Shown piece by piece: positions 16,942-63,179 of a stretch of 64,000 nucleotides of DNA. The notes below the pieces were generated by a model. That model saw only the letters and a list, made by a program, of their open reading frames with translations. It was not told the origin of the DNA and did no database searches. Source of the stretch: Thermoanaerobaculia bacterium (GTDB lineage: Bacteria > Acidobacteriota > Thermoanaerobaculia > UBA5066); assembly GCA_963816185.1 (NCBI GenBank), contig CAWFJJ010000008.1:192001-256000 (forward strand), given 5' to 3'. The translations under genes and the position numbers were made by a program. Each line of letters begins with the position of its first letter. Position 1 is the stretch's first letter.

Positions 16942-19142
16942 CCGATACGCCGCGCCTTTGGCTTTTTCGGTATAGGCGGAGGGACGAGAAAGAGAGGAGA
17001 GAGGAAAGAGATGTTCTTCGAAAGGTATTGCGGCCGGTGCGCCCGCGGCCTGCGGCGCTGCGACGGCTGTGGGTCGGCGCCGCGGAGACCTTTCTTACCT
17101 TCTAAGAAATCCTCATATGCGGCGGCTGCTGATGCAGCCGCCGATATAGGCGAATCTGTTGCTCGAACGTCCGACGTCAAGGGCGCGCTCTGCGCGCCGC
17201 TTCGCGGTCGAAGACCCTTGACTTCGGACGTTCGAGAAATATCCCCTTCTTCGTTCCCCTCTTCTCCGAAGCAAATCTGAATTCCTTCGGCAGCGGGTTG
17301 GCGAGGACGGTGTCCTCGCCGTCGCCCGGGAACGCCGCAGGCGTAGCAGTGCCCCCACTTACAGTCGTCCGTGTGCATCTCCTTGAGCGCCTTCTTCCAC
17401 TCCACGACGAGGAAAGGCTTGCGGATGAAGGCGTCGACGACGTCCCAGGGGAGCGTCTCCTTGAGGTCCTTCTCCCTGAGGTGGCGGCTCTTCGGGATGC
17501 CCGCGGCCTCGAGCGCTTCGTTCCACCGCTCCCACGAGAAGTGCTCGCTCCACGCGTCGAAACGCCCGCCGCGCCTCCAGACCTCGAGGATCGCCCGGCC
17601 CATGCGCCGGTCGCCGAGCGAGAGCATCGTCTCGATCTCGGCCTCCTTCGGCTCGTGCCACGTCATCTTCGCGCCCCTCACCGTGCGGAATTTCTCCCGC
17701 AGATAGGCGAGCTTGCGGTTCAGGTTGTCGACGCCGTCGAACGCGAACCACTGGAACGGCGTGAAGCTCTTCGGCACGAACGAACCGACCGAGACGTTCA
17801 CGTTCGGGCGGACTCCGTGTCTCCTTCCCTGGGCGAGGATGTCCTTCACGAGAGTCACGAGCTCGTCGAGGTCCGGCTCGGCCTCGGTCGGGAGGCCGAT
17901 CATCGTGTAGACCTTGATCATGTCCCAGCCGCGCGAGAAGGCGACGTCGGCCGCTTTCACCATGTCGGCGTTCGTGAACGTCTTGTTGATGACGCGGCGC
18001 AGGCGATCCGAGCCGGTCTCGGGCGCGAACGTGAAACCGGACTTTCTCACCTCGGAGACGGCATCCGCGAGGCCGACCGAGAACGCTTCGGCACGAAGTG
18101 ACGGCAGCGAGATCGAGACCTTGGTCTTCGCGAGCTCCGGGGCGAGGCACGCGACGAGCGGTTCGATCTGCGAGTAGTCGGCCGACGACAGGGACAAGAG
18201 TCCGACCTCGCTCCACCCCGCCTCGTCGATGAACGCTTTCGTGGCCTTCGCGACGTCGGCGGGGTCCAGCTCGCGAACGGGCCGGTACCAGTACCCAGCC
18301 TGGCAGAAGCGGCAGCCCTGCGTGCAGCCGCGCATGATCTCGAGGCCGAGCCGGTCTTGGACGATGTCGACCGACGGCACCATCGGCTTTCGGGGATAGA
18401 CGTCGGCCGAGAGCTTCTCGACCCAGACGCGCTTCGCCCTCTCGGGTACTCCCGGAGCGTTCGGGGTCGTCGAGACGACGCGGTCGCCGTCGTAGAGGAC
18501 GTCGTAGAGAGACGGGACGTAGATCCCCGGGCAGGCAGCGAAGGCGAGGAGGCGCTCGCGGCGGGAAAGACCCTTCGTGGCCGCGACCTTCTCGAGGAAC
18601 ACCGGTAGAGCCTCCTCCGCGTCGCCGATGAGGAAGACGTCGAAGAAATCCGCGAGCGGCTCGGGGTTCGCGACGCAGGGCCCGCCGCCGATGACGATGG
18701 GGTCCGCGTCGCCGCGATCCGTGGCGAGGACCGGGATACCCGAAAGCTCGAGCATGTTCGGGACGTTCGTGTAGTTGAGCTCGCTCTGGAGGGAGAATCC
18801 CACGACGTCGAAATCCGAGACGGGAGCGAACGACTCGACGGAAAAGAGAGGGACCTTCTCGCTTCTCAGGATCGCCTCGAAGTCCACCCAGGGCGCGTAC
18901 GTTCTCTCACAGGCCCAGTCGGGCCGCCGGTTGACGATCTCGTAAAGGATCTTCGTGCCCGTGTGGCTCATCCCGATCTCGTACGCGTCGGGAAACGCGA
19001 GACAGACCGTCACCGACATCTCGCCGAGGTCCTTGCGCGTGACGTTCCGCTCCAGGCCGAGGTAGCGCCCCGGGCGCTCGACGGCGAGGAGGAAGGGCTC
19101 GAAGCGGGAACGGACGGACGCGTAACGCACGGCGGATCTCAC
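16938..19142 (-). CDS. TIGR03960-family B12-binding radical SAM protein; 3' linker contains a repeat element and ambiguous frame
   Basis: VERPGRYLG.E.N, FPDAYEIGMS, RGCTQGCRFCQAG, FAPETGS, PKSFTPFQW, C...C..CGV. Confidence 0.9.
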   Translation of the reverse strand: MRSAVRYASVRSRFEPFLLAVERPGRYLGLERNVTRKDLGEMSVTVCLAFPDAYEIGMSHTGTKILYEIVNRRPDWACERTYAPWVDFEAILRSEKVPLFSVESFAPVSDFDVVGFSLQSELNYTNVPNMLELSGIPVLATDRGDADPIVIGGGPCVANPEPLADFFDVFLIGDAEEALPVFLEKVAATKGLSRRERLLAFAACPGIYVPSLYDVLYDGDRVVSTTPNAPGVPERAKRVWVEKLSADVYPRKPMVPSVDIVQDRLGLEIMRGCTQGCRFCQAGYWYRPVRELDPADVAKATKAFIDEAGWSEVGLLSLSSADYSQIEPLVACLAPELAKTKVSISLPSLRAEAFSVGLADAVSEVRKSGFTFAPETGSDRLRRVINKTFTNADMVKAADVAFSRGWDMIKVYTMIGLPTEAEPDLDELVTLVKDILAQGRRHGVRPNVNVSVGSFVPKSFTPFQWFAFDGVDNLNRKLAYLREKFRTVRGAKMTWHEPKEAEIETMLSLGDRRMGRAILEVWRRGGRFDAWSEHFSWERWNEALEAAGIPKSRHLREKDLKETLPWDVVDAFIRKPFLVVEWKKALKEMHTDDCKWGHCYACGVPGRRRGHRPRQPAAEGIQICFGEEGNEEGDISRTSEVKGLRPRSGAQSAPLTSDVRATDSPISAAASAAAAYEDFLEGKKGLRGADPQPSQRRRPRAHRPQYLSKNISFLSPLFLVPPPIPKKPKARRIG
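17115..17236 (-). repeat. Double-hairpin repeat element, copy 1
   Basis: 75-bp inverted repeat 17162-17236 with GTCAAGGG/CCCTTGAC core, plus hairpin CGGCGGCTGC-TGAT-GCAGCCGCCG; homologous to 52862-52979. Confidence 0.85.
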
Positions 19143-19237
19143 GGACCGTCGAGTCTACCGTGCCGGTGAGACGCCGTCTCGTTTTCCGCGCTGCACTCGC
19201 GGTGCTCTGGCGATCGCGTCGACCTATAATTGTGTAA

Positions 19238-21335: not shown

Positions 21336-21347
21336 GGCGGCCGCCGC

Positions 21348-22456: not shown

Positions 22457-23539
22457 GTGCAGGACCTCCTCGGTCTCCCGCCCCTCGACGTCGCGCGGGC
22501 GGTGCGCGATGTGGCGCCGGAGTCGTTTCGCGCCGCGCAGATCTACAGTTGGATCTACGCACGCCGCGCTACGGACTTCGCGGAGATGACGAGCCTGCCG
22601 AAAGCGATGCGCGAGGAGCTCGCGAAGCGCTTCGTCATCGGTCTCCCGAAGGTCGTCGCGCGAACGCCTGCACCCGATGGGACGGAGAAATTCCTCTTCG
22701 AGCTCACGGACGGCGCGCGCATCGAGGCCGTTTACATCGTGGAGTCGAAGAAGACGCCTTCGTGGACGGACCCCGAAACGCCCGGCGCGTCCCGAATCAC
22801 GATTTGCGTATCCTCGCAGGCCGGCTGCGCAGTCGACTGCGCATTCTGCGTGACGGGACGAATGGGAGCCGGGCGCAATCTCACGGCGGGCGAGATCGTC
22901 GGGCAGTACCTCGCCATCGCGCGTGCGAAGGGCTTCGGCCCTCACGCCGCGAACCTCGTCTTCATGGGGATGGGGGAGCCGCTGTTGAACGTCTCTCAGG
23001 TGACGCGCGCCCTCGACCTTCTCGAAGGTGAGGTCTCCCCGAAGCGCACGACCGTCTCGACGGCGGGCGTCGTGCCCGGGATCGAGAGGCTCGCGGGCCG
23101 ACCGCGCCGCCCGAACCTCGCCGTGTCGCTCTCCGGGGCGGACGACGCGACACGCACGAAGCTCATGCCGATCAACCGCACGTATCCCCTCGCCGAGCTC
23201 TTCGCGGCGCTCAAGCGGTGGCCGCTCGAACGAGGGCGAAGGCTCACGTTCGAGTACGTCCTCATCGAGGGAGTCAACGACTCGACGGCCGATGCGGTGA
23301 AGCTCGCCGCGCTCGTGCGAGCGCTGCCCGCCAAGGTCAACCTCATTCCGCTGAACGAATCGAAGAAGTGGCTGCCGGGCCTGAAGCGGCCCTCGGACGC
23401 CACGGTGAATGCGTTCGCGAAGGCGGTCGCGGACGGCGGAGTCCCGGTGACGGTCCGCTGGTCGAAGGGCCTGCAGGCCGACGCGGCCTGCGGGCAGCTC
23501 AAGGGGCGTGAAGAGCCCCGGCGACCACGATCCCGGTGA
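22457..23539 (+). CDS. rlmN: Dual-specificity RNA methyltransferase RlmN
   Basis: CVSSQAGCAVDCAFC.TG, MGMGEP, KVNLIP.N, AACGQL. Confidence 0.95.
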   Translation: MQDLLGLPPLDVARAVRDVAPESFRAAQIYSWIYARRATDFAEMTSLPKAMREELAKRFVIGLPKVVARTPAPDGTEKFLFELTDGARIEAVYIVESKKTPSWTDPETPGASRITICVSSQAGCAVDCAFCVTGRMGAGRNLTAGEIVGQYLAIARAKGFGPHAANLVFMGMGEPLLNVSQVTRALDLLEGEVSPKRTTVSTAGVVPGIERLAGRPRRPNLAVSLSGADDATRTKLMPINRTYPLAELFAALKRWPLERGRRLTFEYVLIEGVNDSTADAVKLAALVRALPAKVNLIPLNESKKWLPGLKRPSDATVNAFAKAVADGGVPVTVRWSKGLQADAACGQLKGREEPRRPRSR

Positions 23540-24278
23540 GGATGCGTCCCGTCTGCGAGCCGTCACGCCGCCAGGACGGAAGGTCGGGTGTCGACGCCGT
23601 GCAGAGGCCCGACATCGTGATCCGATCCGCGCGCACCCCGCTCGCGCGGAGGGCCGCGGCATTGAACGCCGCGACGTCGACGGTGGCCCGGTCACCGGGT
23701 CCTGGGCGCACCGCCTCCTCCGGAACGGCGACGTCGCGGTATGCATCGTGGAGCGCCGCCACGACCTCGGGTCCGACTTCGTAGCGATCGCGCGAGATCG
23801 ATGGGCCGAACGCGGCACGGAGGCTCTTCGCCTCGACGCCACGTGCGGCGAGAGCGTCGAGCGCGGCGTCCAGGACGCGTGCGGCGGTGCCCCGCCAGCC
23901 GGCGTGGACGGCGGCGATCCAGCCGGTCACCGGGTCGGCGAGAACGATCGGCACGCAATCGGCTGACGCGACGAGGACGAGAACGTTTGGCTGGCAGGTG
24001 AGGACGGCGTCGCCCGTTCCGAGGACTCCGCTCCGGCGCTCACGCGCCGGTTCCTCGAAGGTGAGTGTGACGGCGCCATGAACCTGGTTCATGCGGACCA
24101 CTTCCGCATCCGGCGCGCCGAGCGCCTGGGCGAGGGCCCGCCCGGCGGCGTCGGGATCGAGAGAACGAGCCGACAACGCCCCTCGCGTGAATCCCGCCGC
24201 GAAGCCTGGGATGCCACCGAGCGAAAGCGGCTGAAAGGCGCCGGCCGATTTCGCGCGCGCCGCCGGTCGCCCTTCCAC
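23499..24278 (-). CDS. pgeF: PgeF/YfiH (purine nucleoside phosphorylase/laccase-domain) family protein
   Basis: QVHG, ADCVP, HAGWRG, GPSI...YEVG, SWRRDG. Confidence 0.88.
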   Translation of the reverse strand: MEGRPAARAKSAGAFQPLSLGGIPGFAAGFTRGALSARSLDPDAAGRALAQALGAPDAEVVRMNQVHGAVTLTFEEPARERRSGVLGTGDAVLTCQPNVLVLVASADCVPIVLADPVTGWIAAVHAGWRGTAARVLDAALDALAARGVEAKSLRAAFGPSISRDRYEVGPEVVAALHDAYRDVAVPEEAVRPGPGDRATVDVAAFNAAALRASGVRADRITMSGLCTASTPDLPSWRRDGSQTGRILTGIVVAGALHAP

Positions 24279-24347
24279 ACGCTCATTCTAAGAAATTCTT
24301 CGTCTTCTACTTTTCTTACTCTTCTCCCCCTCTAGAATCCTCGTGTC

Positions 24348-27474: not shown

Positions 27475-27488
27475 AGGAAGGAGAATCG

Positions 27489-46348: not shown

Positions 46349-47233
46349 TCACCGGTGCGATTCGCCGAGCGTGATCAGGACGACCGCTCCGACGATCACG
46401 GCAGCCGCGACGAGCATCCGCAGCGTCACCGCTTCGTCGGCCAGCGCCCAGCCGAGAAAGACCGCGACGACCGGGTTCACGAAGGCGTACGTCGAGACGC
46501 GCGAGGGGTCTGCCACGCGGAGAAGCCAGACGTAGATCGTGTATCCCACGAGCGAGCCGAACACCATGAGGTAGAGGAGCGCCACGAGAGAGCGCGCCGA
46601 AATGTGAGCGGGCGAGAAACGAGCCCACTCGCCGGTCGCGGCGGACGCCGCGAGCAGGAGGGCTCCGCCCGCGAGCATCTGGAGCGCCGTCGCCTGGAGC
46701 GGCGACTCGGTGGGCGCAAAGCGCCGCGAGAGAATGGACCCGAAGGCCCACGCGAGCGCGGCGAAAAGCACCGCCGCCGCTCCGAGGAGGTCGATGCGCT
46801 CGCCCCCCAGGCCTGCGGGGCCGAGGAGAAGCGCAACACCCGAGAGCCCGAGGACGAATCCGAAGAGGGCGCGATTGCCCGGCGCATGCCGCTCGGGCGG
46901 CAGCGCGCGCAGGAGGACGATGAAGAGGGGCTCGGTCGCGATGAGAAGGGCCGCGAGGCCGGAGGAGATCCGCTGCTCGGACCAGACGACTCCGCCGTTT
47001 CCGCAGAGGAGGAGCAGGGCGCCGCACGTGAAGGCGGGAACGAGATCGCGGCCCGCGACGGGAGGCGCTCCACGCGCCTTCGCGGCGGCGAGGAGGATCG
47101 CGCCCGCGCACGCGTACCGAAGGCCCGACATCACGAAAGGCGGAATCGATTCCAGGCCGAAGCGGATCGCGAGATACGTCGAGCCCCAGACGACGTAGAG
47201 GACGAGGAGACCGAGGACGGCGCCGCGCTTCAC
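46349..47233 (-). CDS. EamA/DMT transporter (YedA-like)
   Basis: YVVWGSTYLAI, SSGLAAL, YL..FGS, STYAFVNPVVAV. Confidence 0.92.
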   Translation of the reverse strand: MKRGAVLGLLVLYVVWGSTYLAIRFGLESIPPFVMSGLRYACAGAILLAAAKARGAPPVAGRDLVPAFTCGALLLLCGNGGVVWSEQRISSGLAALLIATEPLFIVLLRALPPERHAPGNRALFGFVLGLSGVALLLGPAGLGGERIDLLGAAAVLFAALAWAFGSILSRRFAPTESPLQATALQMLAGGALLLAASAATGEWARFSPAHISARSLVALLYLMVFGSLVGYTIYVWLLRVADPSRVSTYAFVNPVVAVFLGWALADEAVTLRMLVAAAVIVGAVVLITLGESHR

Positions 47234-49125
47234 GGCGCGATCATCGCCTCCCAGACGGCGCGCGACATCTTCCGCGCGGCGTCGATGACCTTCCGCCGCC
47301 CTTCCTCGTTCGCGCCGAAGTCGTTCGCGAGGAGGACGAGGACGTACTCCCGCCCGTCAGGCAGGCGGACGACCGCCGCGTCGTGCTGCGAGGTGGACAT
47401 ATTTCCCGTCTTGTGGCCCACGATCGCGCCCGACTGCGGATGGAGACCGGCGGGGATCTCCTCGTTGAACGTCTGGCCGGTGAGAATCTCCCATGCCTTC
47501 GCTCTCGAGGCGACCGAGAGCTTCGGCGACCGCACCGCCGCTTCCATTACCGTCGCCATGCCCGCCGCGTCCGTCTCGTTGTTCAGCCCCTCGTCGAACG
47601 CCTTCATGTCCTCGACGCACCGCCGCACCTTCACGGTGGGCGCGCCGAGCGCGTCCGTGAAGGCCTGGACGTTCTCTGGCCCGACGAGCGAGAGGACGAC
47701 GTTCGTCGCGAGATTGGAGGAGCGGACGATCATCTCCGTCACGAGGAATTCGAGCGTCGCCTTCCCGCCGAGCTTCTTCATCGTCGGCGCGTCGCCGTCC
47801 TCGAGGCCGATCGAGAACGGCGAGCCGTCGACGAGACTCTTGAACTCGTTCTTCACCGGCACCTCGTCCGAGAGTCGGAGCGTGCCTGCGTCGACGCGGC
47901 GGAGGACCTCAAGGAGGACGGGGGTCTTCATCGTGGAGGCAGCGTGCATAGGAAGAGAAGGATTCTTCGAAAGGGAAACGCCGCTAGAAAGGTCCTTGAA
48001 GTAGATGCCGAAGCGGGCCCCGCTGGCGTCGGCGATTTTGTCGAGCGTCGTCCTCAGGGTTCGCACCTTCGCCTCCGTGAGCCCCGTCCCCGCTTCCCCT
48101 TTCGAGGAAATCTTCTCTTCTCTCTTCAATCTCCGGGCATATCGAAAGAGAGGCTTCAGGAATGGGCTGTCGAACGGCGTGATCTGCGCGCCGGGCACAC
48201 CGTGACGCGTGGACTGCAGGACCGTGCCGTCGCCGAGCCACATCGCCTCGTGGTCGATCTTGTCCGGCGTGCCGAAGAAGAGGAGGTCGCCGGGCTGGAG
48301 CTTCTCGAACGCGACGGGGACGAGCTGCGGATCCTGGAACGCCTGCTCGTAACTGTTGCGCTTCAGGGTGACGCCGTGCTCCGAGAAGATCCGCCAGATG
48401 AGCCCCGAGCAGTCGAACCCGAGAGGCGAGGTCCCGCCCCAGGTGTACGGTGCGCCGAGGAAGCGCTTGCCGAACGCGATCCAGTCGGAAGGGGATTTGA
48501 GAGGAAGAGGGGAAGAAAGAGAAAGAGGGAGATTTTCTTTGAGGGTGAAGAGGGTCACGTCGCGGCGCGCGACGAAGCCGATGCGCCGATCCGGGAGGCG
48601 CACCTTCACCCAGGAGTAGACGTCCGCCGCATGGCCCGCCGCGGCCGGCTTGCCCTCTTCACCTTCTAAGAAATCTTCAACTGCGAACGTCACCCCCACC
48701 GGAGCGGTGAGGAGGGGACGGGCGGAGGTGAAGGACGGCGTCGCGTAGACATGCGCGAAGTTTGACGTCACGTGCGCGAGCTTCGATCCCGGCGCCGGCT
48801 GCGCCGGCGCCTCACCGCGGCGCAGCGCCCGCTCGGGGATCCACACGTCCTCGCCGGCGGCCGTCCGCACCCTCGCGAAGCCCGCGGCGCTTTCGAGGAC
48901 CGCGACGCGGTCGCCGAGGATCGCCTGGTCGTCGACGCTCGACGTCTCGTCCGGACGGACGAAGAGGTCCTGCACGGCTGTGACGACGACGGCCGTCTGC
49001 GGCGGCGCCGACGACGCACCGGGAGACGCGGAAAGGGAGATTTCTTCGATTGAGAGGAGAAGAACGGCCACAGTGAGTGCGCGAGCGGCGGTGAATCGGC
49101 GGGCGGGATTTCCTTCGAGGCACAT
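47230..49125 (-). CDS. SH3-SH3-NlpC/P60 endopeptidase (YkfC-like) fused to a class A beta-lactamase-fold serine hydrolase
   Basis: LGAPYTWGG...FDCSG...RNS..Q...GDLLFF...DHE; then ASTMK, SSN, HKTG. Confidence 0.85.
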   Translation of the reverse strand: MCLEGNPARRFTAARALTVAVLLLSIEEISLSASPGASSAPPQTAVVVTAVQDLFVRPDETSSVDDQAILGDRVAVLESAAGFARVRTAAGEDVWIPERALRRGEAPAQPAPGSKLAHVTSNFAHVYATPSFTSARPLLTAPVGVTFAVEDFLEGEEGKPAAAGHAADVYSWVKVRLPDRRIGFVARRDVTLFTLKENLPLSLSSPLPLKSPSDWIAFGKRFLGAPYTWGGTSPLGFDCSGLIWRIFSEHGVTLKRNSYEQAFQDPQLVPVAFEKLQPGDLLFFGTPDKIDHEAMWLGDGTVLQSTRHGVPGAQITPFDSPFLKPLFRYARRLKREEKISSKGEAGTGLTEAKVRTLRTTLDKIADASGARFGIYFKDLSSGVSLSKNPSLPMHAASTMKTPVLLEVLRRVDAGTLRLSDEVPVKNEFKSLVDGSPFSIGLEDGDAPTMKKLGGKATLEFLVTEMIVRSSNLATNVVLSLVGPENVQAFTDALGAPTVKVRRCVEDMKAFDEGLNNETDAAGMATVMEAAVRSPKLSVASRAKAWEILTGQTFNEEIPAGLHPQSGAIVGHKTGNMSTSQHDAAVVRLPDGREYVLVLLANDFGANEEGRRKVIDAARKMSRAVWEAMIAP

Positions 49126-49150
49126 TCCCGGATTCCACCATAATCCGGCC

Positions 49151-51225: not shown

Positions 51226-52833
51226 TCAAGGAGCGAATTGAACCGGCCGTCCGTTCAGTTTTTGGGCGAGAGCGAGACCGCGTCTCACGACGTCGTTCCA
51301 CGGGAAGAGCGCGCCCGGGTCGTCTTTTCGGTCGGGCGCGATGTGCTGGTGCCCGACGATCCAGGGCGCGTCGATCGCGAACATCGCCGTGAGAACTCCC
51401 ACGAGCCGCACGACCGTCTCGATCTGGGCGGGCGTGAAGGGATACCGATTGCCGTCGCCGGTGATCTCGATGCCGACCGAGGTGCGGTTCAGGGCCATGC
51501 GCCCGTGGAGAAGCGAAACGCCCGCGTGCCACGCGCGGTGCTCGAGCGAGACGAACTGGAAAAGGCGGCCGTCGCGGCCGACGAGGAAGTGCGACGAGAC
51601 CTTTCTCTCGGGCTTCTCGAAGAGCGAGATGCACTCCTCGTCGGTGTCCTGCGACGTGTGATGGAGAACGAGTGCCGAGATCGGCTCGATCTTGAACGGC
51701 TCGTAACCCTCCCACCACGAGTTCGGCATCGGGATGAGGCAAGCGTCGGCCACGTCTCCGCCCGCCGCCTGCCAGAGATTCCAGAAGCGTCGGTCCGTCT
51801 CGCGGAAGACGCGGTCGAGGTAAAGGGCGTCGGGGTTCGCCCGGGCTTCGGCGAGCGTCCTCTCCGCGCGCGGCACCGGCGGCAGGAGGACCGGCGGAAG
51901 CGGAGGCTCGACCACGGGTTCGAGGTCGGGGAGCGAAGCGGACCACTCGTTAACGATCGCGGCGGCGACGTCGCCCATCACACGGACGGCACGGGCTTTT
52001 CCGTCCGCCGTGTCGGGAAAGTGGTCGGCGAACGCGACGAGGACGAAGCGGCCCTTCTTCGTCGTGAGGATGCCCGAATCGTTCCGTACGCCTCCGTAGC
52101 TGCCCGTCTTGCCGGCCCAGGACGTCCCGGGCTCGTCGAGGAGCAGCCGAGGCAGGCGGTCGCGATCGTGCTGCGTCGCGAGGAGCTTCCCGATGAGGCG
52201 GTCGCTCGCGGGACCGAGGAGCGTGCGTGTCGCGATCCGCCGATAGAGCTCCGCGGTGTCGCGGGGCGTCATGATGCCGAGGGGTGCCCACTTCGGAGGC
52301 TCCTCGCCCCTGCTCGGGATGCGGCCCACGAGCCGGATCCCGGGCAGGCCGAGCGCCGCCATGCGCGCGTTCACAGCCTCCGCGCCGAAGAGGTCGATGA
52401 AGCGGTCGGCCGCCGTGTTGTCGGAGATCGCGATCATGAGATGGAGCAGGTCGCGATTCGTGGGCGTGAGGCCGGGGTCGAACTCGTCGAGCATCCCCGA
52501 GCCCGCGGCCACGTTCTTCGCCGTGAGCTTCCAACGGTCCGTCAGGTCGAAACGGCCCTCCCCTTCGAGAGCGGCCGCCTCGACCAGGAGCGCGAGCTTG
52601 ATGACGCTCGCCGCCTCGAACTCCTCCGCGGCGTTCAGCTCGAGGCGCCGCCCGCTCTCGACGTGAAGCGCCACGATTCCCATTCGCGCCCCGCTCTTCG
52701 CCGCGAGCTTCGCGACGCGGCGGGCGAGCCCGCGGTCGTCCGGCGCCACGTGCAGCGAAGCAGGGATGGAGGTGCAGGACGCGAGAAACAGGAGGAGAAC
52801 GAAAGGGAGAATTCCTGCTATCGGTGGCCGCAT
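51226..52833 (-). CDS. Lipoprotein: class A beta-lactamase-fold serine hydrolase fused to Amidase_2 (AmpD-like) domain
   Basis: Lipobox LASC; ASVIK, SDN, KTG; LHHT, SSHF, RAWHAG, SVGIE, GH..IAP.RK.DPG. Confidence 0.88.
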   Translation of the reverse strand: MRPPIAGILPFVLLLFLASCTSIPASLHVAPDDRGLARRVAKLAAKSGARMGIVALHVESGRRLELNAAEEFEAASVIKLALLVEAAALEGEGRFDLTDRWKLTAKNVAAGSGMLDEFDPGLTPTNRDLLHLMIAISDNTAADRFIDLFGAEAVNARMAALGLPGIRLVGRIPSRGEEPPKWAPLGIMTPRDTAELYRRIATRTLLGPASDRLIGKLLATQHDRDRLPRLLLDEPGTSWAGKTGSYGGVRNDSGILTTKKGRFVLVAFADHFPDTADGKARAVRVMGDVAAAIVNEWSASLPDLEPVVEPPLPPVLLPPVPRAERTLAEARANPDALYLDRVFRETDRRFWNLWQAAGGDVADACLIPMPNSWWEGYEPFKIEPISALVLHHTSQDTDEECISLFEKPERKVSSHFLVGRDGRLFQFVSLEHRAWHAGVSLLHGRMALNRTSVGIEITGDGNRYPFTPAQIETVVRLVGVLTAMFAIDAPWIVGHQHIAPDRKDDPGALFPWNDVVRRGLALAQKLNGRPVQFAP

Positions 52834-52861
52834 GCGCGGCCACCGGCAAAGAGAACGTGTT

Positions 52862-52979
52862 GCCGGGCGGAGGCTGTCAAGGGTCCTCGACCGCTGCGCG
52901 GCGCGCGGAGCGCGCCCTTGACAGCCTTCGCCCGGCCCAGATTCGTCCCTGCGGCGGCGGCGAATGCCGCCGCCGATAT
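52862..52979 (+). repeat. Double-hairpin repeat element, copy 2 (intergenic)
   Basis: 75-bp inverted repeat 52862-52936 with GTCAAGGG/CCCTTGAC core, CAGATTCG linker, hairpin CGGCGGCGGC-GAAT-GCCGCCGCCG. Confidence 0.85.
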
Positions 52980-53018
52980 CAGAAGAAATTCTCATCTTCT
53001 GTCGTTCTAACATGCGCC

Positions 53019-55119: not shown

Positions 55120-55973
55120 CCGCCGCCTCGCTCTGGCGGCTCGGTCAGCGCGGCGGCCACGTTCGAATGTTTCTTAGAAAGGTGAAGAGCGGCCGCGGAG
55201 GCATCGACTTTCCATTTCGCCGAGACGAGTGCGGTAGGCAAGTGCCAATTAACCCTTCTGAGAAATTCTTCTGCGTTCTCTTCGGACGTTTCCGCAATGT
55301 CCCGGACGATGCGGATCGCGCGTTTGCGGAGTTTTTCGTTCGTGGGTTTCATCGCGACCATCTCGTCGCGGTAGACGAAGCCTCTTTTCGCCATGACGGC
55401 CGTCGAGAGCATGTTGAGGGCGATCTTCTGCGCGGTTCCGGCCTTCAGCCGGCTGGACTCGGCGAGGACCTCGGGACCGGTATCGAGGACGATCGCGATG
55501 TCCGCGAGCCTCTCGAGAGGAGAATGGAAACGACATACGATCGCCACCGTGAGCGCGCCCGCGCGCTTCGCCTCTTCCAGGGCGCCCGACACATAGGGTG
55601 TCGTGCCGCTCGCGGAGATGCCCACGACGGCATCCTTTGCGCCCAAGCCCGCCGAGACGAGGTCGCGTGCGCCCGCGCCCGCACCGTCCTCCGCGCCCTC
55701 CTTCGCCTCTGACATTGCGTCGCGTCCGCCCGCGACGAGCGCGACGACGAGCGAGGGGTCGGTCCCGAACGTAGGCGGGATCTCTGCGGCGTCCAGCGCT
55801 CCGAGCCGGCCGCTCGTCCCGGCGCCCGTATAAAACCACCGGCCGCCCGCCTCGAGCCGCGAGGCGATTGCGTCGGCCGCGCGCGCAATCGCGGGAAGAG
55901 CCGCGCTCACGGCGTCCTGGACCGCGCGGTCGGCCGCGTGGAGCCGCCTGAGGAGGTCGAGCGTCGCGCTCAT
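55116..55973 (-). CDS. murQ: N-acetylmuramic acid 6-phosphate etherase
   Basis: GAGTSGRLG.LDAAE.PPTF, EGAED, GPEV..SSRLKAGTAQK..LNMLST, NEKL. Confidence 0.93.
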   Translation of the reverse strand: MSATLDLLRRLHAADRAVQDAVSAALPAIARAADAIASRLEAGGRWFYTGAGTSGRLGALDAAEIPPTFGTDPSLVVALVAGGRDAMSEAKEGAEDGAGAGARDLVSAGLGAKDAVVGISASGTTPYVSGALEEAKRAGALTVAIVCRFHSPLERLADIAIVLDTGPEVLAESSRLKAGTAQKIALNMLSTAVMAKRGFVYRDEMVAMKPTNEKLRKRAIRIVRDIAETSEENAEEFLRRVNWHLPTALVSAKWKVDASAAALHLSKKHSNVAAALTEPPERGGG

Positions 55974-58298: not shown

Positions 58299-58328
58299 GG
58301 TCCGTCCAGCCGCGCTAACCTCCGTCGC

Positions 58329-60192
58329 GTGCGCCGGCCGCTCTTCCTGCTCCTTCTCGCCACCTTCGCGCTGAAGGCGGCAGTCCTCGCGCGCTTCAAC
58401 GCCCATCCCCTTCTTCAGCCCGCGGGCGACATCGACGGCGGCGTCTACGCGCGTCTCGCGGCGGACGTGGCACGCGGAGATCTCCTGCTGCGCGGCGCCG
58501 GCCCCGTGCCGTTCTTCGTCTCGCCTCTCTACATCTACTTCCTCGCGGCGATCCAGGCTCTCTCATCCGGTTCACTTCTCGCGGTGAAGGTCGTGCAGAT
58601 CGCGCTCGGAACGGCCGCGGTCGCGCTCGTTTTCTTCACGGCAAGACGCCTTTTCGGCAGCCGCGCGGCGCTCGCCGCCGGCATCCTCTACGCACTCATT
58701 GGCGTCGTGACGTTTCACGAGGTCCTGATCCTCCAGGCGGCGATCGATCCCTTCTTGACGGCGCTCGCTCTTTTCCTGCTGGCTGATGCGCTCACGCGGG
58801 GCAGCTTGGGACGCTGGCTCGCTGCGGGCGCGGCGTTCGGCCTCCTCGCGTTGAATCGTCCGAACGCGCTTCTGTGCATCGTTGCAATCGTCGTCGTTCT
58901 GCTCGCATTCGCCGCGACGCGTCTCGTCGCGCGTCGCCACAACGGCCAGCCCTTCTTACCCTTCGAAGAAAATCCTCTTCGAACCCTGCAAGTTGTCGGG
59001 GCATTCCTCGTGGGGACGGGAGCAATGATTGCATTGCCCTTCGCACGCAACCTGATCGTCTCCGGCGAGCCCGTCCTGATCTCTTCACACGGCGGGCTGA
59101 ACTTCCTGATCGGGAACGGACCGGAAGCAAACGGCGTCTACCGAGTGATCCCGGGGATCACGCCCGACATCGGGGGGCAGGCGGCGGACGCGAAGCGCAT
59201 CGCGGAGGCAGCCGAAGGCCGGCCGCTTTCTACGCGGGAGGTCTCGGCGCACTTTGCGAAAGTCGCGTGGACGTGGATCAAGGAAGATCCGGGCGCGGCC
59301 GCTGGACTCTTCCTCAGGAAGATCTGGTACGTCCTCTCGCGCGACGAGGCGCCGCTCAATTTCAGCTTTCCGTGGTACCGCGAGCGAAGCCTCGCGCTGA
59401 AGGTGCTGTTCGTGAGCTCCGGCCTCCTCGTGCCGCTCGCGGGCGCGGGTTTCGTCCTGGCCTCTCTTTGCGTCGGCAGGGGCGGAGCGCCGCGCGCTCT
59501 TCGTCTGGGCGATCTTCGTCCCGGCGTACGTATTCGCCGTCGCGGCATTCTTCGTCGCGACGCGGTACCGTCTCCCGCTTCTCGTCGCTCTCGCCTCGCT
59601 CGGGGGCGCCGCCCTCGCGCGGCTCCCGGAGGCGTGGCGGACGAAGGGCGCTCGGCTCTGGTCAGCGGCGGCGGCGGCCGCCCTCCTTTCGGTGGTCTCC
59701 CTGTGGCCGACGGGCCTCTGGGACGGCGCCGGGGACGAGGAGATGCACCTCGTCCTCTGGGAGATCGAGCAGGGCGAGGCGGGGGCGATGCAGCACGCGG
59801 AGGCGGCAGCCCGAGAGCATCCCGATCCGGCTCTCGTCTGGCTACGTGTCGGGCGGTCGTTCGTGACGGCGGGGAAGAGCGACGAGGCGATCACGGCGCT
59901 CACTCGGTCCCACGAGATCGACGCCAACCGTCCCGGGACGGCTTCCTTTCTGTCGGCCCTGCTCGAAAAGAGGGGGCTCGCGCGCGTCCTCTCTGGAGAC
60001 CCGACGGGAGCGCGCCCCGATCTCGAGGAGGCCGTCCGGCTGGACGGCACGAACGCGTCGGCGTGCCTGAACCTTGCCGTGGCCCTCGCCGAGACGGGAG
60101 ACAGCTCGCGCGCCCGGGAGCTCATCCAACGGGCTCTCGTCTTGAGACCCGGCTACGACAAGGCCGAACAGCTCCTGAAGGCTCTCCGCTAG
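58329..60192 (+). CDS. GT-C (family 39-like) membrane glycosyltransferase with C-terminal TPRs; frameshift near 59490
   Basis: D...Y, PLY.YFLA, RPN, GG.NFLIGN.P.ANG; FFVATRYRLP and TPRs continue in another frame. Confidence 0.78.
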
Positions 60193-60207
60193 GCGCTCAG
60201 GCCGGCC

Positions 60208-60276: not shown

Positions 60277-60298
60277 GTCTCGCCCCTCGCGCCACAAG

Positions 60299-60327
60299 AA
60301 AAAGTGGCCCGGCGTTTCCGCCGGGCC
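60299..60327 (-). terminator. Rho-independent terminator of the TonB receptor gene
   Basis: GGCCCGGCG-GAAA-CGCCGGGCC then ACTTTTT on minus strand. Confidence 0.8.
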
Positions 60328-60356
60328 CATCAAGAGAAGTTAGAGAAGGGGGAGTC

Positions 60357-63179
60357 TTAGAAGTCCAGACGAGCCGTCAGGACGAAGCGCCTCGGCGCGG
60401 CCCAAGCCGTCGGCGTCCCGAAGGCCGGGTTTGGCTGAGAGGTTCCCTGCGGGCCGAGGGAGGTCGGCGGGTTGGCGTCCTCGTACGCGTCGAAGTACTT
60501 TATATCGTCGACGCTCAGAACGGTCTGCGTGTTGAAGAGGTTCTGGACGCGCGCTTCGAGACGAATGCCAAGAGTGTCCGACGGCTTGAACGTGTAGGCC
60601 GCGAGGAGATCGAAGTTCGTCCACGTCGGGAGCCGGTGCGAACCGGCTGGCTCGAGGTAGCGGCCGTAGTCTGTCGACGGCGTCCCCCCGCGAGCCTCCC
60701 ACGGTGTGCCGCTCTGGACGCGGAGGAAGCCGCCCACGGTGACGCCGAACGGAAGGTCGTATGTTCCCATCGCCTTGAAGATGATCGGGCGGTCCTGCCG
60801 CATGAGGCCGTCACGATTCGGTTCGGCCGAGTACCAGCCGGGCTCGTCCTCGAGGAACGAGGAGGTGTTGAAGAGGGCGAGTCCGTAGTCCTCGTCGAAG
60901 TTACCGGCCAGCTTGCTGTACGTGATGTTCGCGTCCGCGTACCAACGGTTCGCGTACCTCTTCGAGACGTCCAGCGTAACACCGTGGTAATGGCGCCGGG
61001 CGTCGGGGAAGTTCGCGGCCTGGAAGCTGCCGAAGTAGGTGTTCGAGTCGTAGGGGTTCGCGCCGATCCCGGTGTCCTCGAACGCGTTCTTGAGGTTCCG
61101 GTACTGGTAGTAGAGGTCGAAGGTGACGTCCTTCGTGAGTGCCGCCGAGTAGCCGAGGATGAATTCCTGGTAGTACGGCGGCTTGAGGTCGGTCGGGATG
61201 AACTTCCCTCCCGAGGAGCCCCGGTACTGCGAGCCGAGGAATCCGCCATAGGGCACCGAGCCGCAGCCCGTCGTGACGGTGCAGAAGTAGGCCTGGTCCT
61301 GACGAATCCGGAACGGCGCGAAGGACCGCGCCGTGGACTTCTGGTCCATGCCGGCGTATTCGCCATAGGTCGAATAGAGCTTGTCGCTGGAGAGCAGGTT
61401 CGGGTTCCAGGTGATGCCGAGGCGAGGCTGGACCTGCTGGCTCCAGCTGAACGTCATGAAGTTGAAACGCGTGTCGGACGTTTCCGCGGGCGTCCCGGTC
61501 GACCCGCAGACCTGGCCGGCTTTGCAAACCTGGGCGAAGTCGTCCTTGTTGGCGAGAACCCCGACGTAGATCGTCAGGTTCTTCATCGTGATCGTGTCCT
61601 GGATGAAAGCCGAGTACGTGCGCGCCTTGGAGTTCTGCGTCGGCTGGGAGGTGTAGTACCGGGCGCGGTCCGAGGCATACTTGGTACCGGTGCCACAGAC
61701 AGCGGTCGGGCAGGTCCCGCCGATCGCCCCCCAGAGGCCCCAGCCGTTCGTCGCGCGGACGGTGTCCATCGAATCGTCCTCGAAGCCGCCGCCCAGCTTG
61801 AACGCGTTCTGCGTCGGTCCGATGTCGAGATACTGGCTGAGCGTGGCCTTGACCTCGCTCCTCTTGTACCGGTCGCCGGTCTCGGCGAACTCGGGCAAGC
61901 CTCCGTTGTTGCTATGCCGATTCGGGTCGGGAAAGTAGCCGTACGCCGCGAGATTTTTCGGGTCGATCGTCATCGGCTGGAATGCAGGAACGAGATTCTG
62001 GCCCACAGACGTGTCGTTCTCCTGCAGGGCGACGTACTTCGCCTCGAAGACCGTGTCTTTCGACGCGAACCAGTCCGCTGTGAAATTCCCGACGTAGTTC
62101 GTCGTGTCGGTCCCGTAGCCGGCGGTGGGTGCGTCGTAGACCGAGTTGAACTGGTCCGTCCCTTTGTTCGGCAGCGCGCGGAAGCCCGCGTTGAGAAGGA
62201 GCGACTGGCCGATGAAGCCTGTCAGCTTTCCGAAGTAGTCGCCGTTGTGCGACTTCGAGTCGGGCTGCGTCGCCGTGGTGTTGTCGACCAGCGTGGCCGA
62301 CTGGCCGGTCGTCTTATTGTCGTAGTAAGCGCCCGAGACATATCCGAAGAGCATGTCCTTCACGATCGGGAACCCGAGGTTCGCCTGACCGCTGTAGTTG
62401 TTGACATTGGACTGCGTGCCGAAGTCTCGGTTCGCCTGAAAGGAAGACGGCGAAATGATGGCCTGCACGCTGCCGACGATCTGGTTCGTTCCCGACTTCG
62501 TGACGGCGTTGATCATCGCGCCCGATGTCCGGCCGAACTCGGCCGAGATGCCGCCCTTCTTCACGTTGAAGTCCGCGATGTCGAGCTGGTTCGTGTCGAC
62601 GCCGAGGAAGCCGTAGCCCGGGTTCGTGATGTTGACGCCGTCGAGGAGGTACTTGTTGTCCTGCCGCGTTCCGCCGGAGATCGAGACGAAGCCTTGTCCG
62701 TCCGAGGCGGCGGCCCCCGGTACGAGCTTCAGGACTCCCTCGTACGTCCGCGAGAGCGGCAGGTCCTTGATCGTGTTGTCGGTGAAGTTGAAGTTGACCT
62801 CGGAGGCCGTCTTGTCGATCTCGGCCGCGGCGCCGGTCACGACGACCTCTGCCTTCGTCGTCTGAACGAGCGTGAGCGCGAGCTGCGCATCGCTGTCGAC
62901 GAAGACCTTGACCTTGTGGCTCGCCGTACCGAGCCCCTGGAGCTCCGCGGTGACAACGTAGTCGCCGGGCAGAAGGACCGTGAACTTGAACGCGCCGTTC
63001 GCGTTCGTGACGGTGTCGCGGGGGGCCTGTGCGCCCGCGAGCTTCACGCTGGCGCCGGGAACGGGAGCACCGGTGCCGTCTTTCACGACGCCCGAGATCG
63101 ACCCCGTCTCGCCCGCCAACGCCGCGGTGGCCGTGACGAGAAGCACAAGTGAAATGAGAACACGCGAGATGAGCCTCAT
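60357..63179 (-). CDS. Oar-like TonB-dependent receptor with carboxypeptidase-regulatory-like N-terminal domain
   Basis: Signal peptide, G.I.G.V.D..GA.VPGA.V, LP..R, DGVNIT, AEFGR.SG..IN.VTKSGTN, NLFN, terminal F. Confidence 0.93.
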   Translation of the reverse strand: MRLISRVLISLVLLVTATAALAGETGSISGVVKDGTGAPVPGASVKLAGAQAPRDTVTNANGAFKFTVLLPGDYVVTAELQGLGTASHKVKVFVDSDAQLALTLVQTTKAEVVVTGAAAEIDKTASEVNFNFTDNTIKDLPLSRTYEGVLKLVPGAAASDGQGFVSISGGTRQDNKYLLDGVNITNPGYGFLGVDTNQLDIADFNVKKGGISAEFGRTSGAMINAVTKSGTNQIVGSVQAIISPSSFQANRDFGTQSNVNNYSGQANLGFPIVKDMLFGYVSGAYYDNKTTGQSATLVDNTTATQPDSKSHNGDYFGKLTGFIGQSLLLNAGFRALPNKGTDQFNSVYDAPTAGYGTDTTNYVGNFTADWFASKDTVFEAKYVALQENDTSVGQNLVPAFQPMTIDPKNLAAYGYFPDPNRHSNNGGLPEFAETGDRYKRSEVKATLSQYLDIGPTQNAFKLGGGFEDDSMDTVRATNGWGLWGAIGGTCPTAVCGTGTKYASDRARYYTSQPTQNSKARTYSAFIQDTITMKNLTIYVGVLANKDDFAQVCKAGQVCGSTGTPAETSDTRFNFMTFSWSQQVQPRLGITWNPNLLSSDKLYSTYGEYAGMDQKSTARSFAPFRIRQDQAYFCTVTTGCGSVPYGGFLGSQYRGSSGGKFIPTDLKPPYYQEFILGYSAALTKDVTFDLYYQYRNLKNAFEDTGIGANPYDSNTYFGSFQAANFPDARRHYHGVTLDVSKRYANRWYADANITYSKLAGNFDEDYGLALFNTSSFLEDEPGWYSAEPNRDGLMRQDRPIIFKAMGTYDLPFGVTVGGFLRVQSGTPWEARGGTPSTDYGRYLEPAGSHRLPTWTNFDLLAAYTFKPSDTLGIRLEARVQNLFNTQTVLSVDDIKYFDAYEDANPPTSLGPQGTSQPNPAFGTPTAWAAPRRFVLTARLDF

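What the first reader, a model, noticed from the sequence alone, without database searches (positions are those of the whole stretch)
16981..60364. Dispersed AT-rich motif (CCTTC[T/G]AAGAAA[T/A]YCTY + pyrimidine tract) written into unrelated genes on both strands
Seen, plus strand: ttcttaCCTTCTAAGAAATCCTC (17092-17114), TTCTAAGAAATTCTTC plus a ~30-nt pyrimidine-rich tract (24286-24332), CCTTTCGAGGAAATCTTCTC (48098), ctcttcaCCTTCTAAGAAATCTTC (48655-48678), CCTTCTGAGAAATTCTTC (55254), ttcttacCCTTCGAAGAAAATCCTC (58953), and weaker copies at 17231, 52979, 53028 and 54253. Seen, minus strand: 17008-17025, 47951-47975, 48488-48545, 49031-49063, 52790-52815, 55165-55190 (ctcttcaCCTTTCTAAGAAACATTC) and 60333-60364. 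Most copies lie inside CDSs and force TTA/TCT/CTT/AAA codons in genes that otherwise end codons in G/C. They are read in different frames (HLSKKH, EEFLRR, LSKNPS, PFEENP). The same peptide EDFLEG appears in both a radical SAM linker and an SH3 domain. Inference: the constraint is on the DNA, not the protein. Established analogues are DNA uptake sequences (Neisseria DUS, Pasteurellaceae USS with AT-rich flank) and chromosome-organising sites (matS, Noc/SlmA boxes). The motif matches none that I know, so it may mark an undescribed uptake or nucleoid-structuring system.
Basis: partly seen in the sequence, partly recalled or inferred. Interest (0 to 1): 0.88.

Follow-up and report, generated by a model that had tools for sequence, protein, structure and literature searches.

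The report
Paired inverted DNA signal across a genus
An uncultured soil Acidobacteriota genus carries hundreds of copies of one AT-rich DNA word, nearly always as two inward-facing copies around ordinary DNA, even inside essential genes, which points to an undescribed DNA-recognition system.

Summary
The motif is real and far above chance: 10 window matches against 1.0 expected, and 922 copies in the 5.09-Mb genome.

It is a DNA-level signal.
- It is read in all six frames.
- It switches T to G exactly where T would make a stop codon.
- It uses codons such as TTA thousands of times more often than codon usage predicts.

The motif is one arm of a two-armed unit: [purine tract][GATTTCTTAGAAGG-TGAAGAGGG] unique DNA [CCCTCTTCA-CCTTCTAAGAAATC][pyrimidine tract].
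- 76% of strong arms have a head-to-head partner within 300 bp, against 2% at random.
- Across 29 genomes of the genus, I counted 656 heads-in sites and 13 tails-in sites.

The two arms do not covary. The DNA between them is unique and often native coding sequence. Arms sit at orthologous positions across the genus and a sister genus, and arose in place by clustered substitutions. So they are not recent mobile insertions.

Function is unknown. My best reading is paired recognition sites for a trans-acting DNA-binding factor. A DNA uptake or transfer signal kept by molecular drive is the close rival. No matching description was found in print.

The parts
17008..17025 (-). Arm (left arm of unit 1), with a pyrimidine tail running towards 16975 on the minus strand. 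It lies in the intergenic region upstream of the ATG at 16941 (minus strand).
   Evidence: Sequence. Head-to-head partner at 17092-17114.
17092..17114 (+). Arm (right arm of unit 1). It is conserved at this site in relatives that lack the neighbouring repeat.
   Evidence: In the alignment, G001, G002, G038 and G039 carry CTTACCTTC[T/C]AAGAAATCC here.
17112..17250 (+). A separate ~135-nt double-hairpin repeat (MITE-like) inserted beside the arm.
   Evidence: At least 21 matches in G000 and 1-23 per genome in relatives. Present or absent at the orthologous site. Fold z-score -8.15.
24050..24072 (-). Weak arm (TTCCTCGAAGGTGAGTGTG on the plus strand) inside the minus-strand gene. Probable partner of 24280.
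   Evidence: Read by eye. Not scored.
24280..24332 (+). Arm with a ~35-nt pyrimidine tail, at the start or 5' leader of the minus-strand gene 23499-24287.
47951..47977 (-). Arm (unit 3, left), read in sense as SLSKNPSLP in the beta-lactamase-like domain.
   Evidence: Conserved in 19 relatives.
48095..48118 (+). Arm (unit 3, right), antisense to the gene, in the linker between NlpC/P60 and the beta-lactamase-like domain.
   Evidence: Conserved in 19 relatives; two of them carry extra in-frame tandem copies.
48488..48549 (-). Arm plus pyrimidine tail (unit 4, left), in the linker before the NlpC/P60 domain. Tail length varies between species.
48655..48678 (+). Arm (unit 4, right), a perfect consensus match, read antisense as EDFLEGEEG. 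The rare TTA codon is kept in most relatives.
   Evidence: Carried by independent soil-run contigs.
49031..49063 (-). Arm (unit 5, left), read as LSIEEISLS just after the hydrophobic core of the signal peptide.
49109..49135 (+). Weak partner arm (TTTCCTTCGAGGCACATTCC) over the start codon region of the minus-strand gene.
   Evidence: Read by eye. Not scored.
52790..52815 (-). Degenerate arm flanking a palindromic repeat in a divergent intergenic region.
52815..52975 (.). Palindromic three-hairpin repeat related to 17112-17250. It is at this locus only in G000. The five relatives aligned have a canonical two-armed unit here.
52979..53000 (+). Degenerate arm on the other side of the palindromic repeat.
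55165..55190 (-). Arm (unit 7, left), in the C-terminal tail of the minus-strand gene (HLSKKH).
   Evidence: Conserved in all 14 aligned genomes.
55250..55272 (+). Arm (unit 7, right).
   Evidence: Conserved in all 14 aligned genomes.
58953..58978 (+). Arm with no partner that I could recognise within 300 bp.
60333..60364 (-). Arm-like copy whose TAA is the stop codon of the minus-strand gene 60357-63146, followed by a terminator-like hairpin. No partner seen.

Best explanation
SHOWN. The motif is one arm of a two-armed DNA unit.
- Each arm is an asymmetric ~26-nt consensus, CCCTCTTCA-CCTTC[T/G]AAGAAA-TCTCC, followed by a C/T-rich tail of variable length.
- Two arms face each other head to head, with tails outward, around 26 to about 280 bp of unrelated DNA. 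The commonest core-to-core distance is 62-66 bp.
- That central DNA is often native coding sequence.
- The arms match the consensus independently of each other.
- They arose in place by clustered substitutions and small in-frame insertions at tolerant protein positions.
- They are kept at orthologous sites through a whole genus and its sister genus.

INFERRED.
- Each arm is a recognition site on double-stranded DNA for one sequence-specific trans-acting factor, most simply a protein with twofold symmetry or a pair of protomers.
- The fixed heads-in orientation means either that two arm-bound protomers contact each other across the central DNA, or that each arm is a polar loading site and the pair sends a process outward on both sides.
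- The sites are kept by selection on a genome-wide function that does not depend on the local gene. Chromosome structuring or loading of a DNA-handling machine would fit.

I cannot name the factor.
For: - Enrichment and codon-aware tests.
- Frame-dependent stop avoidance. In the frame where T gives TAA, the counts are G 47, A 11, T 8. In open frames T dominates, for example T 43 to G 9.
- Pairing in G000. Among neighbouring hits under 300 bp apart there are 292 heads-in pairs, 11 tails-in and 116 direct.
- 75.9% of 775 strong arms have a partner of 16 bits or more on the head side. The figure is 2.2% on the tail side and 2.1% at random places.
- Replicated in the genus: 656 heads-in sites in 29 of 29 genomes against 13 tails-in sites.
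- In the sister genus, 17 heads-in sites in 7 of 8 genomes. In 8 other genera of the family, 0 sites in 26 genomes.
- Independence of arms: no covariation at any variable position. Flanks are no more complementary within pairs than between pairs, 6.43 against 6.18.
- Central DNA is unique. All-against-all BLAST links only 19 kinase paralogues, 7 repeat-bearing units and a few small clusters out of 292 pairs.
- 153 of 292 pairs lie inside one coding ORF.
- Orthologous conservation: five arms in 19 relatives at 77-83% overall identity, with arm cores visibly better kept than flanks. Both arms of unit 7 are kept in all 14 aligned genomes.
- In-place origin, shown in alanine racemase. Arms at FLEG and SPSKKS are shared by G000, G014 and sister-genus G058. 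They are absent in two motif-less genera, with native sequence between them.
Against: - No binding factor was found.
- No experiment or expression data exists for these uncultured organisms. No RNA run was listed.
- The spacing shows no 10.5-bp helical periodicity, which looping between bound proteins often gives.
- Spacing varies tenfold, which is unusual for a fixed protein complex.
- Counts of the exact 14-mer vary from 9 to 94 between genomes of the genus. That fits a dynamic drive or selfish process better than a fixed essential architecture.
- Selection per site would be weak for about 450 redundant sites.
- My gene contexts rest on an ad hoc codon model, not on curated annotation.
Confidence: 0.35

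Rival explanations
1. The arms are a DNA uptake or transfer signal, similar to USS/DUS or a packaging site, kept by molecular drive. DNA carrying arms would be imported or transferred preferentially among members of the genus, so arm-improving mutations spread. The divergent pair would give the polar machine a start in both directions, or each arm would promote transfer of its partner.
For: - The evolutionary behaviour matches published uptake sequences. It is lineage-specific, with a weaker presence in the sister genus. It is strand-symmetric.
- It sits in genes in all frames at poorly conserved positions, and was made by substitution (abstract of PMC2817400).
- It is over-represented outside genes (passage of PMC1939737).
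- It has a one-sided flank. The USS also has one, but that is from my recall, not a call.
- Copy number varies tenfold between species.
- ComEC and ComEA-like genes are present.
Against: - 76% of arms are in inverted pairs, against about 10% for known uptake sequences. A drive acting on single sites does not predict pairs.
- Density is about 1 arm per 5.5 kb. The published counts are 1,471 and 1,892 per genome (outline of PMC2817400), in genomes I recall as about 2 Mb.
- Arms run against codon usage, whereas published uptake sequences follow preferred codons.
- ComEC and ComEA are widespread in non-competent bacteria; 10 and 11 of the 14 control genomes have them.
- Competence is unknown in this uncultured group.
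Confidence: 0.25
2. The arms are relics or domesticated ends of a miniature inverted-repeat element family, comparable to Rickettsia palindromic elements or Correia elements. They would be kept uniform by gene conversion among about 900 copies rather than by function.
For: - The unit looks like two terminal inverted repeats.
- A truly mobile ~135-nt double-hairpin repeat has arm-like ends. It often sits between or beside arms, and is present or absent at orthologous sites.
- Two relatives carry extra in-frame tandem arm copies in a linker.
Against: - The central DNA is unique and is native protein sequence, as in alanine racemase, the kinases and the signal peptide.
- The arm at FLEG arose without any change of length.
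- The arms of a pair do not covary.
- No pair encloses a transposase-sized segment as a family.
- No Y1 transposase was found.
- The single IS4/5-like and IS630-like genes have no arms within 1.5 kb.
- The IS630-like gene is in 2 of 29 genomes of the genus, in 0 of 8 of the sister genus, and in genera that lack the motif.
- The double-hairpin repeat may simply target the rare AT-rich sites of a 67% GC genome.
Confidence: 0.12
3. The unit works in RNA. Whichever strand is transcribed, the RNA carries first the purine form, which contains AGAAGGUGA (8 of 9 matches to a perfect Shine-Dalgarno sequence). It then carries the pyrimidine form, which resembles the 16S 3' end and its downstream spacer, and looks like a C/U-rich Rho loading site. 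The unit would act in translation pausing, RNA cleavage or termination.
For: - The 16S gene ends ...TCACCTCCTTTCTAAGGGATCTC. By eye, the arm TCACCT-TCTAAGAAATCTC matches this at 17 of 19 positions with one 4-nt gap.
- The pair makes the RNA the same in both directions of transcription, so strand symmetry does not exclude RNA.
- Some units bracket signal peptides.
Against: - No covariation between arms, so no selected hairpin.
- Unit 4 folds no better than shuffles, z-score -1.57.
- No Rfam family was found in the window.
- No fixed distance to start codons appears in the position matrix.
- Many units lie where transcription in a given direction is not expected to matter.
- No RNA data are available.
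Confidence: 0.1
4. The signal is at the protein or codon level: flexible linker peptides, or rare-codon pause sites.
For: Arms in genes sit in linkers and loops, and after signal peptides. Their tails encode Ser/Pro-rich or Glu/Lys-rich low-complexity peptides.
Against: - The same DNA word is read in six frames and on both strands.
- It occurs outside genes.
- It keeps its nucleotide sequence where synonymous codons were free to change.
Confidence: 0.03
5. Chance or an assembly artefact.
For: This genome shows single-base frame breaks in two genes, so its consensus is not perfect.
Against: - 0 of 100 shuffles reach the observed counts.
- The motif is in 28 of 28 other genomes of the genus.
- The genome-collection scan lists it in many separately named assemblies, with several assembler-style contig names.
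- It is carried by contigs of four soil runs.
Confidence: 0.01

Closest known systems
DNA uptake sequences (Neisseriaceae DUS, Pasteurellaceae USS)
   Same: - Hundreds to thousands of copies of a lineage-specific asymmetric word, equal on both strands.
- Present in genes in every frame at poorly conserved residues.
- Enriched outside genes.
- Shared by related species.
Sources: abstract of PMC2817400, passages of PMC1939737, and here.
   Different: - Here 76% of arms are in head-to-head pairs 50-280 bp apart, around non-complementary DNA. Known uptake sequences are inverted repeats in about 10% of cases.
- The conserved part is longer, about 26 nt plus a tail.
- Density is lower.
- The codons used are rare, not preferred.
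- Uptake is untested, and the organisms are uncultured Acidobacteriota.
Miniature inverted-repeat elements inside genes (Rickettsia palindromic elements; Neisseria Correia elements)
   Same: Inverted terminal arms of about 25 nt, hundreds of copies, in-frame presence inside protein genes, and retention at orthologous sites. The features of these elements are from my recall. One search returned only a listing of related papers, which I did not read.
   Different: - The DNA between the arms is not part of a repeat. It is unique and often native coding sequence.
- Arms arose by substitution.
- No target-site duplication or linked transposase was found.
REP / REPIN / BIME elements with RAYT transposases
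   Same: Short repeats that occur mostly as inverted doublets, hundreds per genome (recalled).
   Different: - REP units are themselves hairpins, extragenic, and the doublet folds. Here arms are not palindromic and do not covary.
- Half of the pairs are inside ORFs.
- No Y1 transposase was found in a genome that is 94.9% complete.
Chromosome-organising words (Chi, KOPS, matS, Noc and SlmA boxes) and cyanobacterial HIP1
   Same: Genome-wide words that are independent of gene context and are read by a DNA-handling protein. For HIP1 the function remains unknown (recalled).
   Different: As I recall them, Chi and KOPS are 5-8 nt and skewed with replication. matS, Noc and SlmA sites are palindromes present in tens of copies. 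HIP1 is an 8-nt palindrome. None is an obligate pair of long asymmetric arms.

Membership tests
DNA uptake sequences (USS/DUS) | Fragments carrying the word are taken up preferentially by competent cells. | not testable with these tools
   The organisms are uncultured MAGs. No assay is possible.
DNA uptake sequences (USS/DUS) | Strong lineage-specific over-representation, equal on both strands, in genes and between them. | tested here: met
   465 plus-strand and 457 minus-strand hits, present in 28 of 28 other genomes of the genus; 0 heads-in sites in 26 genomes of 8 other genera of the family.
DNA uptake sequences (USS/DUS) | Copies act singly, and only a minority are inverted repeats. | tested here: not met
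   75.9% of strong arms have an inverted partner, against about 10% in PMC1939737.
DNA uptake sequences (USS/DUS) | DNA uptake machinery is present. | tested here: inconclusive
   ComEC gives 1 hit and ComEA-like HHH_3 gives 4 hits. The same families ring in 10 and 11 of the 14 control genomes. Pilus and secretin genes were not searched.
MITE / Rickettsia-palindromic-element type | The whole element, including its internal part, is a repeated sequence inserted as one piece. | tested here: not met
   Central regions are unique apart from paralogues and 7 repeat-bearing units. In alanine racemase the central region aligns with relatives that lack the motif.
MITE / Rickettsia-palindromic-element type | Presence or absence polymorphism, and a parent transposase with matching ends. 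| tested here: not met
   Arms are fixed at the three loci aligned. No arm-bounded transposase was found. The separate double-hairpin repeat does meet this feature.
REP/REPIN with RAYT | Hairpin-forming repeat units and a Y1 (RAYT) transposase gene. | tested here: not met
   No covariation or extra complementarity. PF01797 gives 0 hits in G000.
Chi / KOPS type polar words | Strand skew that follows the direction of replication. | not tested
   Genome-wide strand counts are equal, and inverted pairs cancel any skew. Mapping against GC skew was not run before the script machine was lost.
matS / Noc / SlmA type boxes | A palindromic site bound by a dimer, tens of copies, confined to one region. 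| tested here: not met
   The arm is asymmetric. There are about 900 copies, with hits listed on many contigs. The features of these boxes are recalled.

The most novel reading that the evidence does not exclude
The units are divergent pairs of polar loading sites for a DNA-translocating machine, such as an import, export or packaging motor, or a chromosome loop-former. Such a machine would mark and handle 'self' DNA in one clade of Acidobacteriota. If so, this would be a new class of genome-wide signal: an obligate two-armed site written by selection or drive into essential genes. If the machine is an uptake system, it would be, to my recall, the first sequence-specific one outside Proteobacteria.
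Probability: 0.25. Interest if true: 0.9.

Novelty: new variant of a known kind. Interest (0 to 1): 0.78.

Why it matters
Few classes of genome-wide DNA words are known, mainly uptake sequences, Chi, KOPS, REP and HIP1. Each one led to a piece of DNA-handling machinery or to a long-standing puzzle.

This case has a long, well-defined consensus and a strict two-armed geometry. It has clear phylogenetic limits: one genus, plus weaker presence in its sister. Sites are written into conserved enzymes against codon preference.

That gives concrete handles:
- a bait sequence for pull-downs;
- a presence/absence contrast between sister genera for finding the factor;
- natural 'before and after' alleles, such as alanine racemase, for studying how a genome writes a signal over its own genes.

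It also matters for annotation. The arms and their low-complexity tails keep frames open, so read-through ORFs can arise, as downstream of the radical SAM gene at 16938-19154. They also add rare-codon patches to real genes.

Tried and rejected
- Rfam gathering scan of the window: no family.
- Hairpin or cruciform idea: rejected. Flank complementarity within pairs equals that between pairs, arms do not covary, and unit 4 folds with z-score -1.57.
- Helical phasing of arm spacing: none found. The best period near 10-11 bp has R 0.13.
- Autonomous element bounded by arms: only 21 heads-in neighbours at 300-6000 bp, with no shared size class.
- RAYT: none found.
- IS4/5-like and IS630-like transposases: no arms within 1.5 kb. 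The IS630-like gene is sporadic and not linked to the motif.
- Outgroup comparison for the SH3-NlpC/P60-beta-lactamase gene: no orthologue in 5 genomes of other families. I switched to alanine racemase.
- Ribosome-binding-site idea: the purine form has an SD-like word, but there is no fixed start codon downstream and many copies are internal.
- Intron-like reading (AAG|GTGAAG ... CTAAG|): dropped, because the central DNA is native protein sequence.
- Sequencing runs: no RNA holder was listed, and the best DNA holders share 0.17 of the words or less. The laid contigs show the arms but cannot show rearrangements. The two 'joints' are replaced stretches in relatives, not excisions.
- Viral contigs: 99 contigs each with a single match to the 16-mer, consistent with chance. 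None has several.
- Literature: 'Thermoanaerobaculia' with 'repeat', 'DNA uptake sequence' with 'Acidobacteria', and the four 12-mers as text gave nothing relevant. Supplements were not consulted.
- Not done: mapping against GC skew, a whole-genome desert analysis, and a quantitative rate comparison of arms against synonymous sites. The script machine was lost. Statements that arm cores are better conserved than flanks rest on reading the alignments.


Full report
**Setting**

The window is G000:C8:192001-256000 of a 5.09-Mb, 30-contig genome with about 67% GC. The genome-collection scan places the motif almost only in MAGs labelled Thermoanaerobaculia or Acidobacteriota.

Yes.
- CCTTCKAAGAAA with up to 1 mismatch occurs 6 times in the window, against 0.47 expected.
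- A 19-nt degenerate form occurs 10 times, against 1.01 expected. In both tests 0 of 100 shuffles reach the count.
- The 12-mer with up to 1 mismatch occurs 574 times in the genome.
- Aligning 572 of these copies gives an asymmetric consensus: cCCTCTTCA-CCTTC[T/G]AAGAAA-TCTCC, followed by a C/T-rich stretch to about +35.
- A position-weight scan finds 922 copies at 16 bits or more (465 plus, 457 minus) and 776 at 20 bits or more. The reversed genome gives 227 and 83. The motif is partly mirror-symmetric, so this control is conservative.

**DNA or protein?**

I had no annotation. I trained a six-class codon model on 1,221 long ORFs; it calls the true frame in 95% of 50-codon test windows.
- Of 572 copies, 177 have the same coding frame on both sides. 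All six frames are represented: 55, 35, 32, 23, 19 and 13.
- Codon usage cannot explain the word. FLEG is coded TTCTTAGAAGGT in 23 of 90 cases (0.008 expected). PSKK is coded CCTTCTAAGAAA in 33 of 54 (0.057 expected). LLRN is coded CTTCTAAGAAAT in 11 of 48 (0.0004 expected). TTA is 0.5% of Leu codons.
- The one common variant, T or G at core position 6, follows the reading frame. Where T would give TAA, the counts are G 47, A 11, T 8. Where it would give TAG, G 20 and T 10. In open frames T dominates: 43 to 9, 17 to 2 and 29 to 7.

This is a nucleotide word forced onto proteins, with coding as a secondary constraint.

- Neighbouring copies under 300 bp apart are arranged minus-then-plus in 292 cases, plus-then-minus in 11, and in direct order in 116.
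- The unit is therefore [purine tract][GATTTCTTAGAAGG-TGAAGAGGG] central DNA [CCCTCTTCA-CCTTCTAAGAAATC][pyrimidine tract]. Heads face inward and tails outward.
- Of 775 strong arms, 75.9% have a partner of 16 bits or more on the head side within 20-300 bp, and 86.8% have one of 5 bits or more. The tail side gives 2.2% and random places 2.1%.
- Core-to-core distance peaks at 62-66 and tails off to about 280. A spike at 81 is one family of Ser/Thr kinase paralogues.
- After the script machine was lost, I repeated the test across genomes with strict patterns and a 45-75 nt gap.

| Group | Arrangement | Sites | Genomes with a site |
|---|---|---|---|
| Genus (g1, including G000) | heads-in | 656 | 29 of 29 |
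| Genus (g1, including G000) | tails-in | 13 | 11 of 29 |
| Sister genus (g10) | heads-in | 17 | 7 of 8 |
| 8 other genera of the family | heads-in | 0 | 0 of 26 |

- With weak partners that I read only by eye, 24050/24280 and 49031/49109 also pair.
- 58953 and 60333 have no partner that I could see.

**What the pair is not**

*Not a hairpin.*
- Tails and inner flanks are no more complementary within a pair than between random pairs: 6.43 against 6.18, and 5.26 against 5.20.
- At every variable position, the two arms agree exactly as often as chance predicts.
- Unit 4 folds no better than shuffles.

*Not a copied element.*
- Central segments are unique. All-against-all BLAST links only 19 kinase paralogues, 7 units that hold another repeat, and a few small clusters.
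- 153 of 292 pairs lie inside one coding ORF.
- The central DNA there is native protein. Examples are the stretch between the kinase FFEGEE and SFEEI motifs, a signal peptide and part of alanine racemase.

*No linked transposase.*
- No arm-bounded transposase-sized family exists.
- No RAYT was found.
- The two single transposase genes are unlinked to arms. One is sporadic across motif-bearing and motif-less genera.

**Evolution**

- A 2-kb gene with five arms was aligned with 19 relatives at 77-83% identity. The ORF has an SH3-like domain, an NlpC/P60 domain and a beta-lactamase-like domain.
- All five arms sit at the same positions. Their cores, including the rare TTA, are visibly better kept than the flanks. 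Tails differ by indels that look to be multiples of three. Two genomes have extra in-frame tandem arms.
- Both arms of unit 7 are kept in all 14 aligned genomes.
- The exact 14-mer is in 28 of 28 other genomes of the genus (9-94 copies each) and in 5 of 8 genomes of sister genus g10 (2-5 copies). The only other match is a single copy in one of the 34 genomes of genus g4.
- The sister-genus sites I read are also head-to-head pairs.
- Alanine racemase shows how arms arise. G000 and G014 (genus) and G058 (sister genus) share an arm at the conserved 'LEG' position (FLEG, coded TTCTTAGAAGG) and an arm at SPSKKS. Two motif-less genera have VPEG or ELGG there, and a shorter loop.
- The first arm was made without any change of length, by about seven substitutions in 13 nt. 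The second was made by substitution plus a small insertion.
- So arms are written in place at tolerant positions, and this locus predates the split of the two genera.

**A second, truly mobile repeat**

- Window 17112-17250 is a ~135-nt double-hairpin repeat with fold z-score -8.15.
- It gives at least 21 matches in G000 and 1 to 23 per genome in relatives.
- At the orthologous site it is present in some genomes and absent in others, where the arm alone remains.
- A palindromic three-hairpin version at 52815-52975 is at that locus only in G000. The five relatives aligned carry a canonical unit there.
- Its ends resemble arm cores, and several copies lie between or beside arms.
- Either it uses the same recognition system, or it simply targets the rare AT-rich sites of a GC-rich genome. 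I cannot tell which.

**Mechanism**

Shown:
- the unit has two independent, oriented arms;
- it is recognised as sequence, not as structure;
- it evolved in place and is retained for a long time.

Inferred:
- A trans-acting factor reads each arm on duplex DNA.
- The heads-in rule reflects either a twofold-symmetric complex that joins two arms, or two polar sites that send a process outward.

I put 0.35 on a DNA-binding or structuring protein under selection and 0.25 on an uptake, transfer or packaging signal under drive. Old MITE ends with concerted evolution get 0.12, and an RNA-level role 0.10.

- Uptake sequences are the closest in behaviour. They are rarely paired and follow preferred codons.
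- The resemblance of the arm to the 16S 3' end and spacer is striking but unexplained.
- ComEC and ComEA-like genes exist but say little.

**Novelty and limits**

- No paper in the searched library holds the word or describes such a system in this group.
- Gene contexts rest on my own codon model.
- Several conservation statements rest on reading alignments rather than measured rates.
- There are no expression or binding data.

Noticed in passing
window 17112-17250; also G000 loci L182-L195: A ~135-nt double-hairpin repeat: GCGGCGGCTGC..GCAGCCGCCG, then a long stem around GTCAAGGGC..GCCCTTGAC. It gives at least 21 matches in G000 and 1-23 per genome in relatives. It is present or absent at orthologous sites and folds strongly (z-score -8.15). 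It has no Rfam match and looks like an active or recently active MITE.
   Followed up: partly
window 52815-52975: A palindromic three-hairpin version of the same repeat, in a divergent intergenic region. It is at this locus only in G000, and matches both strands of copies elsewhere.
   Followed up: partly
window about 17325 (minus-strand radical SAM gene 16938-19154); G000:C24:400353-400384 (alanine racemase): Single-base frame breaks in two conserved genes. At 17325 G000 reads GGGAACGCC where relatives read GGGACGCC. These are probably consensus indel errors of this assembly rather than biology. They create misleading read-through ORFs.
   Followed up: partly
L001 3040-3075 (16S 3' end) against the arm consensus: The arm TCACCT-TCTAAGAAATCTC matches the 16S 3' end and first spacer bases, TCACCTCCTTTCTAAGGGATCTC, at 17 of 19 positions with one 4-nt gap (counted by eye). 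Its complement contains AGAAGGTGA, a near-perfect Shine-Dalgarno word. The meaning is unknown.
   Followed up: partly
window 47230-49150, minus strand: One ORF combines a signal peptide, an SH3-like domain (plus a possible second one that Pfam does not detect), an NlpC/P60 domain and a class-A beta-lactamase-like domain. It is kept in frame in 19 relatives. No orthologue was found in 5 genomes of other families.
   Followed up: partly
G000 C24:602908-620871 and other contigs: At least 18 Ser/Thr kinase paralogues carry the two arms at the same positions (FFEGEE and SFEEI, 81 nt apart), often with a Ser-rich tail insertion after the second arm. The pair was inherited through gene duplication.
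   Followed up: no
G000 C1:554689-555318: A 273-aa ORF with two ComEA-type HHH_3 domains carries a complete unit in the linker between them.
   Followed up: no
window 53003-53045: The segment CGTTCTAACATG..CCATCAC.AGC.AGCAAAATCTCC upstream of the gene starting near 53103 is nearly invariant in 6 genomes, while its surroundings diverge. It may be a leader or regulatory element.
   Followed up: no
orthologues of window 52790 (L199, L202-L204, L206); G000 C14:32949: A variant purine-form arm, GAGATTCTGCTAATAGGG, recurs at several sites. This suggests sub-types of the arm.
   Followed up: no
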